DNA of 64,000 nt, taken from IMG/VR virus record IMGVR_UViG_3300020463_000001, positions 32,001-96,000 of that record; one strand, 5' to 3'. The translations under genes and the position numbers were made by a program. Source of the stretch: a virus. Its lineage: Duplodnaviria; Caudoviricetes. Positions 11,768 to 16,440 of the stretch are shown here, piece by piece. Positions within the stretch are counted from its first letter, which is position 1; every line of letters starts with the position of its first letter. The notes below the pieces were generated by a model. It saw only the letters and a list, made by a program, of their open reading frames with translations. It was not told the origin of the DNA and searched no databases.

Positions 11768-12364
11768 ATGTCAAATTTTAATGATAGACTTTTCTACAAA
11801 AGATTGAAATTGATAGAAGCTCCTCACAATATTCTAACGACTAAAGTGAAGAAATTCGATTTTAAATTATACGATGCTCCACAATTAAGCGTGGAGATGA
11901 TAGATATCATGTTATTTCACGCTGGTCGAGGTCTTAGCGCGAACCAACTCAACCTAGACGCTCGAATATTTGTTATGCAGAAAAGTTCTGGCGAATACAT
12001 TACAGCAATTAATCCCAAAATAATATCCAAATCCAAAAAGACTCAATTAGACACGGAAGGCTGTTTGAGTTACCCCAATATATTCTTAGAAATATCTAGA
12101 CCAAAATCTGTCGAAGTAGAGTATTATGACGAACATGAAAACAAAGTAACTGAGTTTTTGGCCGGAATCGATGCAAGATGTTTTCAACATGAATTAGATC
12201 ATTTGAACGGCGTTGTCTATACATCGAAGGTATCCAGTCTGAAACTGCAGAGGGCGAAAAATCGTGCGAAGAAACAAACGAAAAATAATTATACTATAAA
12301 TAATAGTAATATTATGGGGGTTCATAATGGAACTGGATCTAAAAACAGAATTCGAAAAATATAA
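11768..12364 (+). CDS. def: peptide deformylase
   Basis: GRGLSANQ, EGCLS, QHELDHLNG motifs. Confidence 0.93.
   Translation: MSNFNDRLFYKRLKLIEAPHNILTTKVKKFDFKLYDAPQLSVEMIDIMLFHAGRGLSANQLNLDARIFVMQKSSGEYITAINPKIISKSKKTQLDTEGCLSYPNIFLEISRPKSVEVEYYDEHENKVTEFLAGIDARCFQHELDHLNGVVYTSKVSSLKLQRAKNRAKKQTKNNYTINNSNIMGVHNGTGSKNRIRKI
12295..12302 (+). promoter_or_regulatory. late promoter TATAAATA within the def 3' end, upstream of the lipase
   Basis: Exact consensus 25 nt before the lipase ATG. Confidence 0.6.
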
Positions 12365-13121
12365 AACTATCGAAAAGATAGGTGAGTATTCTACATCTGT
12401 CGCTAAACAACTAGCACTCTTTTCAACCCTAGTGTACAAGACTGATAACAAGCACTTTCTAGAGAATGCGTTATCCGGTTACACTAAATCACACTTTAAA
12501 ACTTTTGATAACGATGGTACAGAAGCACTCGTAGTAAAGACTGGAACTTGCATTGTTCTTTCTTTTCGCGGAACTGAACCAACAGAACTCAAAGATATCT
12601 TAGCCGATATCAATATCATTCCAAAAAAATCCGAAGAAAGACAGGGGATTGTCCATAGTGGTTTCGCAGAAGCCCTAGATAAAATTTGGGATGATGTGGA
12701 ACTCTATCTGGACTCAATCCATGCGTCCGGAGATCTGGTCTACATATGCGGTCACAGTCTTGGTGGGGCTCTTGCGACTGTCGCAGCTGCTAGATCGAAG
12801 TATCTTTGTCAAGTGTATACTTATGGCCAACCTAGAGTTGGAAATAGGAAATATGCAAAGAATGTAAAATCAACTATCTACCGTCATGTACAAGGAGCTG
12901 ATATAGTTCCTGCCGTTCCGTTACCTATGCTTTTCTATAGACATATCGGAGACATAAAAGTGGTAGACAAACAGAAAAAAATAGTATACACTACAAAGTC
13001 TTTAATAAATTTTGATTGGATTAGATTTAAACTTATGGTAGGATCAATCTTTTCCAAAATACCGTTAATGTCATTGGTCAAAGACCACAACATAACGGAT
13101 TATTATGATAATATTGCATAA
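12327..13121 (+). CDS. class 3 lipase (alpha/beta hydrolase)
   Basis: SFRGT, VHSGF, GHSLGG nucleophile, TYGQPRVG, DIVP, C-terminal DH. Confidence 0.9.
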   Translation: MELDLKTEFEKYKTIEKIGEYSTSVAKQLALFSTLVYKTDNKHFLENALSGYTKSHFKTFDNDGTEALVVKTGTCIVLSFRGTEPTELKDILADINIIPKKSEERQGIVHSGFAEALDKIWDDVELYLDSIHASGDLVYICGHSLGGALATVAAARSKYLCQVYTYGQPRVGNRKYAKNVKSTIYRHVQGADIVPAVPLPMLFYRHIGDIKVVDKQKKIVYTTKSLINFDWIRFKLMVGSIFSKIPLMSLVKDHNITDYYDNIA

Positions 13122-13129
13122 GGAATAAT

Positions 13130-13372
13130 ATGCCAACATACACTTATATTTGCAATTCATGTAATTATAGATTTGAGAAAATGCTGAAAATATCCGAAAG
13201 AAAAAGACCTCTACAGGAACCATGTGAAACGTGCGGAGAAAATACAGTATCTCAAACTATATTGCAAGTGAATGTCGGCGATCCGATTGCATTAGGTGTC
13301 AAGAAGATACCAAAAGACTTTAAAGAAGGAGTTTTAGATAAAGCCAGAAAAGTGCCAGGCGCTGCGATTTGA
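13130..13372 (+). CDS. FmdB-family zinc-ribbon protein
   Basis: MPTYTYICNSC...PCETCG. Confidence 0.85.
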   Translation: MPTYTYICNSCNYRFEKMLKISERKRPLQEPCETCGENTVSQTILQVNVGDPIALGVKKIPKDFKEGVLDKARKVPGAAI

Positions 13373-13424
13373 GTTTTACATTATGGAATATTATGGGATG
13401 GTGCTTAACACAAGGAGCCATTTC

Positions 13425-14129
13425 ATGGGTAAACATAGAAGGAAAACTGCGAGGTTCGCATTGAACGAGTCACACTTTAATTTAGTTGACATTCATCCAA
13501 TGACCGCGAATCAGAGCAGAGTATTTGAAGACTTTGAAGACGGAAAACACCTGTTTTTACATGGTGTCGCTGGAACAGGAAAGACTTACATTTCATTGTA
13601 TCTAGCATCAAGAGAACTATTTGACTTAGGCCCGAGATATAAAAATTTAAGCATAGTAAGGAGTATTGTACCTACAAGAGATATCGGGTTTTTGCCAGGC
13701 TCGGAAGAACAAAAGATGGAAGTCTATGAGTCTCCATATAAATCAATCTTCTCTGATTTATTTTGCAGAGGGGATGCGTACCAACTACTGAAAAAGAAGG
13801 GTGCGATTAATTTCATGACTACCTCATTCATCAGGGGAGTCACATTAAACGACACCATCATTTTAGTAGATGAGTGTCAGAATATGAATTTCCATGAGTT
13901 GGATTCAATTATTACGAGATTAGGAAAGAATTGTAGAATTATATTTTGTGGCGATTTCAGACAAAGCGATTTCACCAAAACAAATGATAAGGATGGCATA
14001 CTACAATTCATGAATATTATGAAGAACATGACGGATGTAGGATTTACAGAATTCGAAGAACACGATATTGTGAGAAGTTGTTTTGTTAAATCCTATATAC
14101 TCAATAAATTGCAGGCTGGAATAGTCTAA
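13425..14129 (+). CDS. phoH: PhoH-like ATPase
   Basis: GVAGTGKT Walker A, IGFLPG, IRGVT, VDECQN, GDFRQSD; AGGAG SD before ATG 13425. Confidence 0.92.
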   Translation: MGKHRRKTARFALNESHFNLVDIHPMTANQSRVFEDFEDGKHLFLHGVAGTGKTYISLYLASRELFDLGPRYKNLSIVRSIVPTRDIGFLPGSEEQKMEVYESPYKSIFSDLFCRGDAYQLLKKKGAINFMTTSFIRGVTLNDTIILVDECQNMNFHELDSIITRLGKNCRIIFCGDFRQSDFTKTNDKDGILQFMNIMKNMTDVGFTEFEEHDIVRSCFVKSYILNKLQAGIV

Positions 14130-14139
14130 GGAGTTACCG

Positions 14140-14466
14140 ATGGGCGATTTAGTAGATGCAAGAGATGTATTCGCGGTTAGGAAACATATCAACGCAAAAG
14201 ATTTGGAAGGTATTCAGAATTATATGAAAGCAGAGGAATATTCTAGAAATATATCTCATAGTCTGATGGAGAATATCATAGACGCAATTGATCAGTCTGG
14301 ATTTAATATATCAGAAAGAAAAATGCTAGATGATTTGACGTTTATTAGTATGGCAATAACTGCCAGTCTGGATAGACAGTTAGGTGTGGATAATCAATTT
14401 TACGAACATATCGGAAAAATGATTAAGAAAATTAAGTCTGAGATAGTTAAGGCTGAAATAAAATAA
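14140..14466 (+). CDS. hypothetical protein
   Basis: AAGGAG SD; ORF track. Confidence 0.75.
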   Translation: MGDLVDARDVFAVRKHINAKDLEGIQNYMKAEEYSRNISHSLMENIIDAIDQSGFNISERKMLDDLTFISMAITASLDRQLGVDNQFYEHIGKMIKKIKSEIVKAEIK

Positions 14467-14479
14467 GGAGGCACATAAC

Positions 14480-14524
14480 ATGAATTGCAAATGCTGCGAA
14501 TGTTGTAATTGTGATTGTTGTTAG
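14480..14524 (+). CDS. 14-aa cysteine-rich microprotein MNCKCCECCNCDCC
   Basis: TAAGGAGG SD 8 nt upstream; 8 of 14 residues are Cys; fills the gap between two genes. Confidence 0.6.
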   Translation: MNCKCCECCNCDCC

Positions 14525-14531
14525 ATAAATT

Positions 14532-15254
14532 ATGTTTAATCATGTGGAGTTTGAGTCTGATGACTTTGAACTTAAAACTGTGAATGAAGATGGAAAAAGA
14601 TGGTATGTTACTGATAGTGGTGGGAGATATCCATCCATCACTACAGTAATTTCTTACTTTAGTAAGGCCGCCATCATGGCGTGGAGAAAACGAGTCGGAG
14701 AAGCAGAGGCAAATAAAGTCTCTCTCAAAGCATCTCGTAGAGGAACCAACGTCCACTTAATGTGCGAAGACTATATTAACAATCTTCCTACAAAAAAAGA
14801 AGCGATGCCAAGTGACTTAGAAATGTTTCATATTATGAAACCAGTCCTTGACGAAAGAATTGGAAATGTCTACGCTCAAGAGTATGCGATGTATTCCGAT
14901 CATCTGGGAATAGCAGGACGATGTGACTGTATTGCGGAATTCGATGGTAAACTGTCCATCATAGATTTTAAAACGTCTAAGAGACCTCTCAGTGCGTTTG
15001 GTGGAGAGAAATTAGACAAGTATCTGAGACAGGCCTCGGGGTATGCAGTGATGTTTGAAGAACGAACTAAAATACCTGTTTCTCAGGTCGTTATTATCGC
15101 TGCAGTAGATAATGAATTACATCCGGAAGTTCATGTCTCAAAAAGAGACAAACATATCGGAGATTTGATTGGAATGATTGATGAATATTATGTCAAAAAT
15201 GGTCTGACAAATAATAATAACCATCAATTAAAAAAAGGAATAATTGGGAAGTAA
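14532..15254 (+). CDS. PD-(D/E)XK exonuclease (Cas4-like, common in marine T4-like phages)
   Basis: YPSITTV, RGTNVH, IAGRCDCI, IIDFKTS, Y..Q..GYA. Confidence 0.88.
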   Translation: MFNHVEFESDDFELKTVNEDGKRWYVTDSGGRYPSITTVISYFSKAAIMAWRKRVGEAEANKVSLKASRRGTNVHLMCEDYINNLPTKKEAMPSDLEMFHIMKPVLDERIGNVYAQEYAMYSDHLGIAGRCDCIAEFDGKLSIIDFKTSKRPLSAFGGEKLDKYLRQASGYAVMFEERTKIPVSQVVIIAAVDNELHPEVHVSKRDKHIGDLIGMIDEYYVKNGLTNNNNHQLKKGIIGK

Positions 15255-15321
15255 TGATTTCCAAATATTCCTCATTTATTTCACGGTTTTTTGACGAAAA
15301 TCGGAAGGTGAGGTACTAAAT

Positions 15322-15567
15322 ATGTGGGTATGGTTAATTCAAGCTATCGCTGGAAGTATAATCGGAAGTGCTACAAGCAGTTGGTTTCAGAACACTGCAG
15401 CAGGGAAATGGTTCTTTGCAAAAGTATCTTCACTATACGACTGGGCCGCAGTGCGGTATAATTTAAAAGTCTTGGACGCAGAAGATACATGGAGAAAAAA
15501 GTATCCAAATGTTTCTGCTAAAATGGACGAATTAGAAAGTAGATTGGAGGCGCTAGAAGAAAAATAA
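15322..15567 (+). CDS. hypothetical protein with a hydrophobic N-terminus
   Basis: GAGG SD; ORF track. Confidence 0.7.
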   Translation: MWVWLIQAIAGSIIGSATSSWFQNTAAGKWFFAKVSSLYDWAAVRYNLKVLDAEDTWRKKYPNVSAKMDELESRLEALEEK

Positions 15568-15590
15568 TTCACAAATTAAGGACACTCACA

Positions 15591-15821
15591 GTGGAAAACT
15601 ACAGACAACTTCAAGCAAGTCTAACAGACCTCAATTGGGATGGAGAAGATTACGAAGAGACTGTCGTGATATTTCCGACAGAACGCAATATCAAATCCGT
15701 AAAATCGATAACATCAGATTATACTAAATACTTTGATGTGATTAAGAACGCTGTGAGAAACTCCGCCTCGGTGAATTATGATCCAGACCTAGAGCCTATC
15801 GCAGTCTTATCTACAAACTAA
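15591..15821 (+). CDS. hypothetical protein
   Basis: AAGGA SD; GTG start. Confidence 0.65.
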   Translation: MENYRQLQASLTDLNWDGEDYEETVVIFPTERNIKSVKSITSDYTKYFDVIKNAVRNSASVNYDPDLEPIAVLSTN

Positions 15822-15832
15822 TGTAGAACTTA

Positions 15833-15861
15833 TTGACAAACCCTTCGTTATGTTATATAAT
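15833..15861 (+). promoter_or_regulatory. sigma70 promoter TTGACA-17-TATAAT
   Basis: Perfect consensus. Confidence 0.85.
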
Positions 15862-15897
15862 TGTTGAGTTATTTAACATAGCACAGGAATATTGCAT

Positions 15898-16440
15898 ATG
15901 AAATTTACGCTTCTGTTTGCCGTGGCGTTGGGAATATTTACACCCAATAAAGTGGCTACTAGTGTTCTGGATAGAGATGCATCAATTGAAGAAGAAGTTC
16001 GATGTCTTGCAGAGAACGTCTACTTTGAATCAAGAAATGAGAGTGTTATGGGACAAATCGCTGTCGCATATGTTACTCTCAATCGTGTTTTTGCACCAAA
16101 ACATCCAGACACTATTTGTGGCGTAGTCCGTCAGGGAGAATACAAAGAATCTTGGAAAACTAGGGCAACCAAAGATCCAAATGATGCGGTATTCATCCCT
16201 GTAAAGGACAGATGTCAATTTTCTTGGTACTGTGATGGTAAATCTGACAAAATACTTGATTTGACTGCATGGAAAAGTGCAGTCAATGTAGCCGCAATGG
16301 TTACAGTCGAGTACGGATCAGAACGACATAGTGATCCTACAGACGGAGCATTATGGTATCATGCAGACTATGTTCAATCCAAATTCCATTCTAAGTTGGT
16401 CTATACCACTAAGATTGGAACTCACATATTCTACCGATAG
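15898..16440 (+). CDS. SleB-like cell wall hydrolase (Hydrolase_2)
   Basis: CLAENVYFESRNE, AVAYVTLNRV, TICGVV, CQFSW, DPTDGALWYH, HIFY. Confidence 0.9.
   Translation: MKFTLLFAVALGIFTPNKVATSVLDRDASIEEEVRCLAENVYFESRNESVMGQIAVAYVTLNRVFAPKHPDTICGVVRQGEYKESWKTRATKDPNDAVFIPVKDRCQFSWYCDGKSDKILDLTAWKSAVNVAAMVTVEYGSERHSDPTDGALWYHADYVQSKFHSKLVYTTKIGTHIFYR

What the first reader, a model, noticed from the sequence alone, without database searches (positions are those of the whole stretch)
14464..14524. 14-aa metallothionein-like microprotein (8 Cys)
Seen: a perfect TAAGGAGG SD, 8-nt spacer, then MNCKCCECCNCDCC-stop, filling the gap between a hypothetical gene and the exonuclease. Cys is encoded by both TGC and TGT, so this is not a simple DNA microsatellite. 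Known: CC and CxC clusters define metallothioneins. Inference: a minimal phage metal (Zn/Cu/Cd) or Fe-S binding peptide that annotation pipelines would miss.
Basis: partly seen in the sequence, partly recalled or inferred. Interest (0 to 1): 0.7.

Follow-up and report, generated by a model that had tools for sequence, protein, structure and literature searches.

The report
Eight-cysteine micro-gene in marine phage
A 14-codon gene that is more than half cysteine is real and belongs to a family of tiny, apparently undescribed peptides carried by many ocean phages; they probably hold metal or iron-sulfur clusters, but that has not been tested.

Summary
TAAGGAGG (14464-14471), an 8-nt spacer, then ATG 14480 to TAG 14524 encode MNCKCCECCNCDCC, 7 nt before a PD-(D/E)XK exonuclease gene that has no Shine-Dalgarno (SD) site of its own.

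The host genome is a complete 200.7-kb T4-like marine phage related to Pelagibacter phage HTVC008M. Its proteins hold only 0.55% Cys.

The ORF is not a chance repeat. I found 44 phage contexts (34 distinct peptides, 13-17 aa with one exception) with the same CxCCxCCxCxCC spacing. Most are SD-led, tightly packed between genes, and sit next to at least 17 unrelated gene families.

In loci found through neighbouring genes only, Cys codons vary T/C at third positions (6 of 8) and never at first or second positions (0 of 16).

Near-identical phages either carry the roughly 57-nt SD+ORF cassette intact or lack it cleanly. Among bacterial genomes only SAR86 showed the same spacing, as acidic, leaderless versions.

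In one phage lineage the ORF abuts an NfuA-type Fe-S carrier gene, in both gene orders.

Best reading: a translated thiolate-cluster (metal or Fe-S) micropeptide that also passes ribosomes to the exonuclease. Metal binding and translation are untested.

This scan noted the same family before on other DNA (SAR86 and marine phages). I found no description of it in the papers I searched.

The parts
14140..14466 (+). Upstream 108-aa gene of unknown function. Its TAA stop codon forms the first three bases of the micro-gene's SD.
   Evidence: ORF list. No Pfam match. Conserved upstream of the exonuclease in close relatives.
14464..14471 (+). Shine-Dalgarno site TAAGGAGG, 8 nt before the ATG.
   Evidence: Sequence. 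SD of 4 nt or more at 3-12 nt spacing in 84% of family members against 20% of random ATGs, and of 5 nt or more in 63% against 7%.
14480..14524 (+). Micro-gene: 14 codons plus TAG, encoding MNCKCCECCNCDCC (8 Cys, spacing CxCCxCCxCxCC).
   Evidence: Identical or 1-2 residue variants in L003-L007. 44 phage contexts with 34 distinct peptides. Codon-position test, p = 2e-4.
14469..14529 (+). Presence/absence cassette (most of the SD, plus the ORF and its trailer). ORF-less alleles replace these 61 nt with TAGG, a net difference of 57 nt.
   Evidence: Alignment A1. A metatranscriptome-library contig joins 14468 to 14530 with TAGG between.
14525..14531 (+). 7-nt A/T-only gap (ATAAATT) with no SD. It implies termination-reinitiation coupling into the exonuclease gene.
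   Evidence: Sequence. ORF-less alleles have AAGGTAGG before the same ATG. No promoter or terminator nearby.
14532..15254 (+). Downstream 240-aa PD-(D/E)XK exonuclease gene. It has only three Cys and lacks the four-cysteine Fe-S cluster pattern typical of Cas4 nucleases.
   Evidence: Pfam PF12705. Annotated as exonuclease in HTVC008M and cyanophages. Translation.

Best explanation
The ORF is a real micro-gene of a complete 200.7-kb T4-like marine phage. Ribosomes load on the strong SD, translate 14 codons and release fMet/Met-NCKCCECCNCDCC. Its eight thiolates, in the fixed spacing CxCCxCCxCxCC, most likely wrap a small metal-thiolate or iron-sulfur cluster. Candidates are Cu(I) or Zn/Cd as in the shortest metallothioneins, or one [4Fe-4S] as in 16-residue synthetic ferredoxin peptides.

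It is one member of a widespread, unannotated family of 13-17-aa peptides in marine phages, with acidic leaderless counterparts in SAR86 bacteria. In this phage lineage it is a discrete cassette of about 57 nt (SD plus ORF), either present intact or cleanly absent.

Where the cassette is present, the exonuclease gene 7 nt downstream has no SD. That gene is then probably translated by ribosomes that terminate on the micro-gene and restart.

Shown: the sequence, conservation at the coding level, family membership, the indel and the neighbourhoods. Inferred: translation, cluster binding, the identity of the metal and the coupling.
For: 1. Non-random. The pattern occurs once in the window against 0.00 in shuffles and once in the genome. 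Genome-wide Cys is 0.55%.

2. Family. There are 44 phage contexts and 34 distinct peptides, with ATG 0-4 codons before the motif (five in one outlier) and a stop 0-2 codons after it. The variable positions are almost only K, N, E, D, S and T, with T at x4 in 21 of 34, and no aromatic residues within the motif.

3. Gene-like setting. SD of 4 nt or more in 84% against 20% of random ATGs. Gaps of about 0-20 nt to flanking genes, and at least 17 downstream and 16 upstream gene clusters.

4. Selection. In seven distinct sequences found only through neighbouring genes, 6 of 8 Cys third positions vary T/C and 0 of 16 first or second positions vary (Fisher p = 2e-4). I saw no decayed copy; the ORF is either intact or absent.

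5. Persistence. An identical SD+ORF occurs in contigs from three other samples (L005-L007).

6. Cluster link. Of 11 loci found with an NfuA-type carrier gene (PF01521+PF01106, invariant GGGCQGC), 8 have the micro-ORF directly adjacent, 7 downstream and 1 upstream. One IscU gene lies directly downstream of a family member (L216). Several family-bearing contigs encode IscU elsewhere (L267). Only 1 Fe-S hit turned up in 2.23 Mb of control viral loci. Fe-S assembly genes are known auxiliary genes of HTVC008M-like T4-type marine phages (PMC5332604).

7. Coupling. ORF-less alleles have AAGGTAGG before the exonuclease ATG, while ORF-bearing alleles have only ATAAATT.
Against: There is no direct evidence of translation. 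No RNA-library contig covered the ORF.

The Cys conservation in the large family set is partly forced by the search pattern. Only the small neighbour-ascertained set is unbiased.

All NfuA adjacencies lie in one variable slot (DUF6267 to cytidylyltransferase) of one phage lineage, so they may reflect an insertion hot spot and not function. IscU adjacency is rare (1 of 80 IscU loci). By tblastn with the phage NfuA and IscU proteins I found no such gene in this phage.

Close relatives do well without the ORF, so it is dispensable.
Confidence: 0.55

Rival explanations
1. Cysteine-sensing or purely coupling leader ORF. The peptide is irrelevant. The run of Cys codons makes ribosome transit, and so re-initiation on the SD-less exonuclease gene, depend on charged tRNA-Cys. 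This would tie expression to the sulfur status of a host that may depend on external reduced sulfur.
For: Polycysteine short ORFs act this way in mycobacteria (10.1101/834739). The exonuclease lacks an SD and starts 7 nt after the stop. About half of the family members are followed within 0-10 nt by a gene with no SD of its own. The selection test cannot tell Cys codons from Cys residues. The phage has no tRNA-Cys.
Against: The downstream genes are at least 17 unrelated families, none in cysteine metabolism. Many downstream genes have their own SD overlapping the stop codon (TAAGGAG, TAGGAG). In L144 and L205 a promoter-like TTGACA/TATGAT pair separates the ORF from the exonuclease. No RNA structure sequesters the next start (z = -0.72). 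A sensor needs only Cys codons, not the fixed CxCCxCCxCxCC spacing or the conserved K and T residues. The ORF is SD-led, not leaderless.
Confidence: 0.12
2. A translated thiol peptide with a role other than holding metal. Examples are a redox buffer or antioxidant in high-light surface water, or a small inhibitor or decoy that attacks a host metalloprotein, thiol enzyme or defence protein.
For: The evidence that it is a selected coding gene is the same. It is an accessory gene with presence/absence polymorphism, which is typical of host-interaction genes. HTVC008M-type phages carry redox genes such as peroxiredoxin.
Against: Eight Cys in 12 residues with CC and CxC spacing is the signature of cluster-forming thiolate peptides. 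Adjacency to NfuA-type carriers points to clusters. No partner or target gene is consistently linked.
Confidence: 0.2
3. A non-functional by-product: a TGY-rich trinucleotide repeat or selfish mini-insertion that happens to be open and to follow an SD.
For: Very short. Absent from close relatives (L002, L008-L010). TGY-rich microsatellites are common in viral contigs.
Against: The start and stop positions are conserved across 44 contexts in unrelated neighbourhoods, SDs are enriched, third-position-only variation is seen, and the spacer residues are conserved. Microsatellite hits look quite different: long poly-Cys frames with no start or stop.
Confidence: 0.05

Closest known systems
Shortest metallothioneins (Neurospora crassa / Agaricus Cu-thionein, about 25 aa, 7 Cys; also bacterial SmtA/BmtA PF02069 and mycobacterial MymT), recalled from established knowledge
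   Same: Very high Cys content, CxC and CC motifs, only small hydrophilic or charged spacer residues, no aromatics, gene-encoded.
   Different: About half the length (13-17 aa), no detectable homology, no His ligands, a fixed CxCCxCCxCxCC spacing of its own, carried by phages. Metal binding is unmeasured.
Mycobacterial polycysteine leaderless short ORFs, the 'Cys ribulon' (Canestrari et al., bioRxiv 10.1101/834739)
   Same: A tiny unannotated ORF dominated by Cys codons at the head of, or inside, an operon. Downstream translation is potentially linked to it.
   Different: SD-led and not leaderless. Downstream genes are unrelated to cysteine metabolism. No RBS-sequestering duplex. Strict spacing and conserved non-Cys residues.
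SAR86 leaderless 8-Cys micro-genes (MC[DE]CC[DS]CCEC[TS]CC..K); not found in the papers searched, noted earlier by this scan and re-found here
   Same: Identical CxCCxCCxCxCC spacing, length of 14-16 aa, marine surface habitat.
   Different: The bacterial forms are acidic (net -1 to -3), start directly with MC and follow a TATAAT-like box with no SD. The phage forms are mostly neutral to basic (K-rich), have 1-4 extra N-terminal residues and an SD. No phage copy of the SAR86 type was found.
Synthetic 16-residue ferredoxin 'maquette' peptides that assemble one [4Fe-4S] cluster (recalled knowledge, not checked here)
   Same: A peptide of this size with four or more Cys can hold an Fe-S cubane. 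Family members sit beside NfuA-type cluster carriers.
   Different: The maquettes use CxxCxxC spacing taken from ferredoxins. There are no data for CC-rich natural peptides.

Membership tests
Phage/SAR86 CxCCxCCxCxCC micro-gene family (undescribed) | Eight Cys in the exact spacing C-x-CC-x-CC-x-C-x-CC within a 13-17 codon ORF | tested here: met
   The window peptide is MNCKCCECCNCDCC. The same spacing occurs in 34 distinct phage peptides and 13 SAR86 peptides.
Phage/SAR86 CxCCxCCxCxCC micro-gene family (undescribed) | Phage type: SD at 3-12 nt, hydrophilic spacers (K/N, K/E/S, N/S/T, T/D/E), packed within about 20 nt of flanking genes | tested here: met
   TAAGGAGG with an 8-nt spacer. Spacers are K, E, N, D. 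The gaps are 13 nt upstream and 7 nt downstream.
Metallothioneins (operational class) | Low mass, about 30% Cys or more in CC/CxC motifs, no aromatic residues | tested here: met
   57% Cys and no aromatic or hydrophobic residue apart from Met1.
Metallothioneins (operational class) | Binds d10 metal ions in thiolate clusters | not testable with these tools
   Needs a peptide metal titration. The fold and complex tools require 30 residues or more.
Metallothioneins (operational class) | Sequence homology to a described MT family (for example PF02069, PF00131) | not testable with these tools
   The profile and PDB searches need 20 residues or more and the peptide has 14. By eye it has no His and no SmtA-type length.
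Cys ribulon leader ORFs (10.1101/834739) | Leaderless mRNA start at the ORF's AUG | tested here: not met
   The ORF is SD-led and internal to a polycistronic unit, with no promoter-like site nearby.
Cys ribulon leader ORFs (10.1101/834739) | Downstream genes belong to cysteine or sulfur metabolism | tested here: not met
   Exonuclease here. Elsewhere cytidylyltransferase, IscU, NfuA and many unknown genes.
Cys ribulon leader ORFs (10.1101/834739) | RNA duplex that hides the downstream ribosome-binding site unless ribosomes stall | tested here: not met
   The fold of 14440-14580 has z = -0.72, and no pairing covers the exonuclease start.
RiPP precursor peptides | Leader plus core peptide with a dedicated modifying enzyme nearby | tested here: not met
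   Only 0-4 residues precede the Cys core. The neighbours are diverse, and none of those scanned against Pfam or PHROGs is a maturase.

The most novel reading that the evidence does not exclude
Marine phages, and SAR86 bacteria, encode the smallest known gene-coded metal or Fe-S cluster peptides. On this reading the 13-17-residue, eight-thiolate carrier works with phage NfuA/IscU-type proteins to store or hand over clusters, or to capture scarce or toxic metals, during infection. It would be a class of auxiliary metabolic gene that no gene caller or viral annotation pipeline sees.
Probability: 0.3. Interest if true: 0.8.

Novelty: new variant of a known kind. Interest (0 to 1): 0.6.

Why it matters
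If the peptide binds metal or Fe-S clusters, ocean phages carry a trace-metal or cluster-handling gene far below annotation cut-offs. It would also be roughly half the size of the shortest metallothioneins I know of. It sits beside Fe-S assembly genes already counted as viral auxiliary metabolic genes, and it has counterparts in SAR86, one of the most abundant surface-ocean bacteria. That would add a missing piece to how infection reshapes iron, copper, zinc and sulfur use in metal-poor seawater. The clean present/absent polymorphism among near-identical phages also offers natural allele pairs for testing its fitness effect.

Tried and rejected
**Expression.** Contigs of four metatranscriptome libraries laid on 13383-15254 cover parts of phoH, the 108-aa gene and the exonuclease. 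None covers the micro-ORF. One carries the ORF-less allele. This gives no evidence either way about transcription or translation of the ORF.

**Deposited phage genomes.** blastn of 14455-14540 gave only chance-level hits (E of 0.7 or more). The search with the NfuA-micro-cytidylyltransferase region found no close isolate.

**RNA structure.** The fold of 14440-14580 is no better than shuffles. There is no promoter or terminator at the ORF.

**Fusions.** Long-frame pattern hits are off-frame repeats and not domain fusions.

**IscU linkage.** It is not general: 1 of 80 IscU loci.

**Own genome.** No second Cys-rich micro-ORF with an SD, no NfuA or IscU by tblastn, and no tRNA-Cys.

**SAR86-type copies in phages.** No acidic, leaderless copy was found.

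**Tools not usable.** Pfam/NCBIfam, PDB, structure prediction, the atlas search and complex prediction were not run, because the peptide (14 aa) is below their minimum lengths.

**Literature.** No searched paper describes polycysteine or metallothionein-like phage micro-genes.

**Exonuclease as an Fe-S nuclease.** I considered that the downstream exonuclease might be a Cas4-type Fe-S nuclease needing a cluster donor. I rejected this because it has only three Cys and lacks the four-cysteine Fe-S cluster pattern.

Full report
**1. What is in the sequence**

One search shows the stop codon of a 108-aa ORF (14140-14466) embedded in TAAGGAGG (14464-14471). An 8-nt spacer follows, then ATG at 14480 and 14 codons reading MNCKCCECCNCDCC, ending at TAG 14522-14524. 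After 7 A/T-only bases comes the ATG (14532) of a 240-aa PD-(D/E)XK exonuclease (Pfam PF12705).

The codon pattern for CxCCxCCxCxCC occurs once in the window even with two mismatches allowed, against 0.00 in 100 shuffles. It occurs once in the whole genome. That genome is a 200,733-bp virus record with direct terminal repeats, rated complete. Its nearest named relative is Pelagibacter phage HTVC008M, with T4-like cyanophages further away.

Cys makes up only 0.55% of codons in the phage's long ORFs, and the phage has no tRNA-Cys. A 57%-Cys ORF therefore stands far outside the genome's composition. No other SD-led Cys-rich micro-ORF exists in the genome.

**2. Close relatives: a clean presence/absence cassette**

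I fetched 80 viral contigs through the exonuclease protein. Five carry the ORF at the same place:
- L005-L007 are identical to the window, SD included, and come from three other samples.
- L003 reads MDCKCCECCNCDCC.
- L004 reads MDCKCCKCCNCDCC.

L002 (98% exonuclease identity), L008 (93%) and L009/L010 (88%) lack it entirely. In those loci the upstream stop is followed by AAGGTAGGTT and the exonuclease ATG.

Alignment A1 shows one block indel. A contig from a metatranscriptome library carries the ORF-less allele, joining 14468 to 14530 with TAGG between. This is a net difference of 57 nt. I saw no frameshifted or decayed copy.

Where the cassette is present, the exonuclease has no SD (ATAAATT). 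Where it is absent, the exonuclease has one. So in this phage the exonuclease is probably translated by termination-reinitiation from the micro-gene. That step is inferred. More distant relatives place a promoter-like TTGACA-N17-TATAAT directly before the exonuclease. The window has no promoter or terminator there.

**3. A large family**

Besides poly-Cys microsatellites in long frames, the scans returned 44 distinct contexts with 34 distinct peptides.

- Each peptide is M plus 0-4 residues (five in one 19-aa outlier), then C-x-CC-x-CC-x-C-x-CC, then 0-2 residues and a stop. Apart from that outlier, lengths are 13-17 aa.
- The four variable positions, which the pattern did not fix except partly at x1, are almost only K/N/E, K/E/S, N/S/T and T/D/E.
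- T occupies x4 in 21 of 34 peptides, and no aromatic residue occurs within the motif.
- An SD of 4 nt or more lies 3-12 nt upstream in 84% of members, against 20% of random ATGs in the same loci. For 5 nt or more the figures are 63% against 7%.
- The ORFs sit about 0-20 nt from their neighbours, next to at least 17 downstream and 16 upstream unrelated gene clusters.

This is an autonomous small gene and not an appendage of the exonuclease. In L144 and L205 it lies at the same phoH-exonuclease junction of a distant relative, but a promoter-like TTGACA/TATGAT pair separates it from the exonuclease.

**4. Selection without ascertainment bias**

The pattern scans force Cys, so I used only loci reached through neighbouring genes: the exonuclease and a cytidylyltransferase. 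In seven distinct sequences, 6 of 8 Cys third positions vary T/C. None of the 16 first or second positions varies (Fisher p = 2e-4).

At the cytidylyltransferase locus the ORF is again either intact or absent. Three contigs there carry a different 6-Cys micro-ORF, MCKCESCKCDPCTCSN, in the same slot.

This shows selection on Cys codons. The fixed spacing and the conserved K and T residues argue that the peptide is what is selected, and not merely the codon content.

**5. Bacteria**

It returned bona fide micro-ORFs of this spacing only in SAR86: 19 contexts and 13 peptides, of the form MC[DE]CC[DS]CCEC[TS]CC..K. These are acidic, start directly with MC, and follow a TATAAT-like box with no SD.

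Earlier notes of this scan led me to include D/E at x1 in the pattern. The result reproduces those notes. No SAR86-type copy appeared in viral contigs.

**6. Functional clues**

In one phage lineage the ORF lies in a variable slot between a DUF6267 gene and a cytidylyltransferase. That slot often also holds an NfuA-type Fe-S carrier gene (PF01521+PF01106, invariant GGGCQGC).

- Of 11 loci fetched with the NfuA alignment, 8 have the micro-ORF directly adjacent: 7 downstream and 1 upstream.
- The three without it are in other contexts.
- One family member directly precedes IscU (L216), but this is 1 of 80 IscU loci.
- Several family-bearing contigs encode IscU elsewhere: L267 at 4.3 kb, and the contigs of L258 and L239.
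- Control viral loci totalling 2.23 Mb gave one Fe-S hit. That control is heterogeneous, and the family loci are not independent.

Fe-S assembly genes are known auxiliary genes of HTVC008M-like T4-type marine phages, one of which was assigned to SAR86 (PMC5332604). The window's own genome has no NfuA or IscU by tblastn. Its exonuclease has three Cys and lacks the four-cysteine Fe-S cluster pattern typical of Cas4 nucleases.

The link to clusters is therefore suggestive only.

**7. Mechanism and rivals**

The best-supported reading is a translated eight-thiolate peptide that holds a small metal or Fe-S cluster, with ribosome hand-over to the exonuclease as a by-product. My odds are about 0.85 that it is a selected coding gene and about 0.55 for the full statement.

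- **Cysteine-sensing leader model** (10.1101/834739). It fails three of its defining features here: the ORF is SD-led, the downstream genes are not in Cys metabolism, and no sequestering duplex exists (z = -0.72). The SD-less exonuclease keeps a coupling or sensing side-effect possible (0.12).
- **A thiol peptide with a redox or inhibitory role** cannot be separated from the main reading with these data (0.2).
- **A non-functional repeat** is very unlikely (0.05).

**8. Novelty**

Searches for polycysteine or metallothionein-like phage small genes found nothing beyond the mycobacterial work. The family is below gene-caller cut-offs.

This scan has noted the family before on other DNA (SAR86 genomes and other marine phages). 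The same stretch was also listed in an overlapping window.

I class it as a new variant of a known kind, the cysteine-rich cluster-binding peptides. It has no homology to any described family that I could test, and its function is untested.

Noticed in passing
L444:1440-1500 (also L445, L446): A different SD-led micro-ORF, MCKCESCKCDPCTCSN (6 Cys, CxC-type spacing), occupies the same slot upstream of the cytidylyltransferase where other phages carry the 8-Cys ORF. This suggests a wider set of Cys-rich micro-genes that replace one another.
   Followed up: partly
L673:1147-1806 versus L669:1201-1866: The micro-ORF and the NfuA-type Fe-S carrier gene occur in both orders (micro then NfuA, and NfuA then micro) between DUF6267 and the cytidylyltransferase. 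This slot is an accessory-gene hot spot that can also be empty (L440-L443).
   Followed up: partly
window 14525-14531; L002:480-500: The exonuclease has no SD when the micro-gene is present (ATAAATT) but has AAGGTAGG when it is absent. Gain or loss of the cassette swaps how the exonuclease gene is translated.
   Followed up: partly
whole genome G000 (window 1-64000 = G000 32001-96000): The phage's predicted proteins are extremely Cys-poor: 290 Cys in 53,193 codons of long ORFs, or 0.55%, with 77% of them TGT. The five phage tRNAs (Gly, Thr, Tyr, Asn, Arg) do not include Cys.
   Followed up: no
window 11768-16440: An accessory-gene-rich stretch on one strand: peptide deformylase (11768-12364), class-3 lipase (12327-13121, overlapping the deformylase ORF by 38 nt), an 80-aa zinc-ribbon protein (13130-13372), PhoH (13383-14129) and a cell-wall hydrolase (15892-16440).
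   Followed up: no
L001, L011-L013, L020-L029, L056-L072, L080-L081 (about 60 nt before the exonuclease ATG): Most distant relatives have a near-consensus TTGACA-N17-TATAAT promoter directly upstream of the exonuclease. The window's lineage has none and reads through from phoH.
   Followed up: no
L327, L329, L343, L355, L360, L361 and others (SAR86 genomes): The SAR86 8-Cys micro-ORFs start about 6-8 nt after a TATAAT/TATACT box with no SD, which suggests leaderless mRNAs. Their peptides are acidic, whereas the phage ones are mostly neutral to basic.
   Followed up: partly
window 14268-14687, run X18: A contig from a marine metatranscriptome library carries the ORF-less allele of this junction, from a relative about 95% identical. 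The polymorphism is therefore present in independent samples. DNA carry-over in the library cannot be excluded.
   Followed up: no
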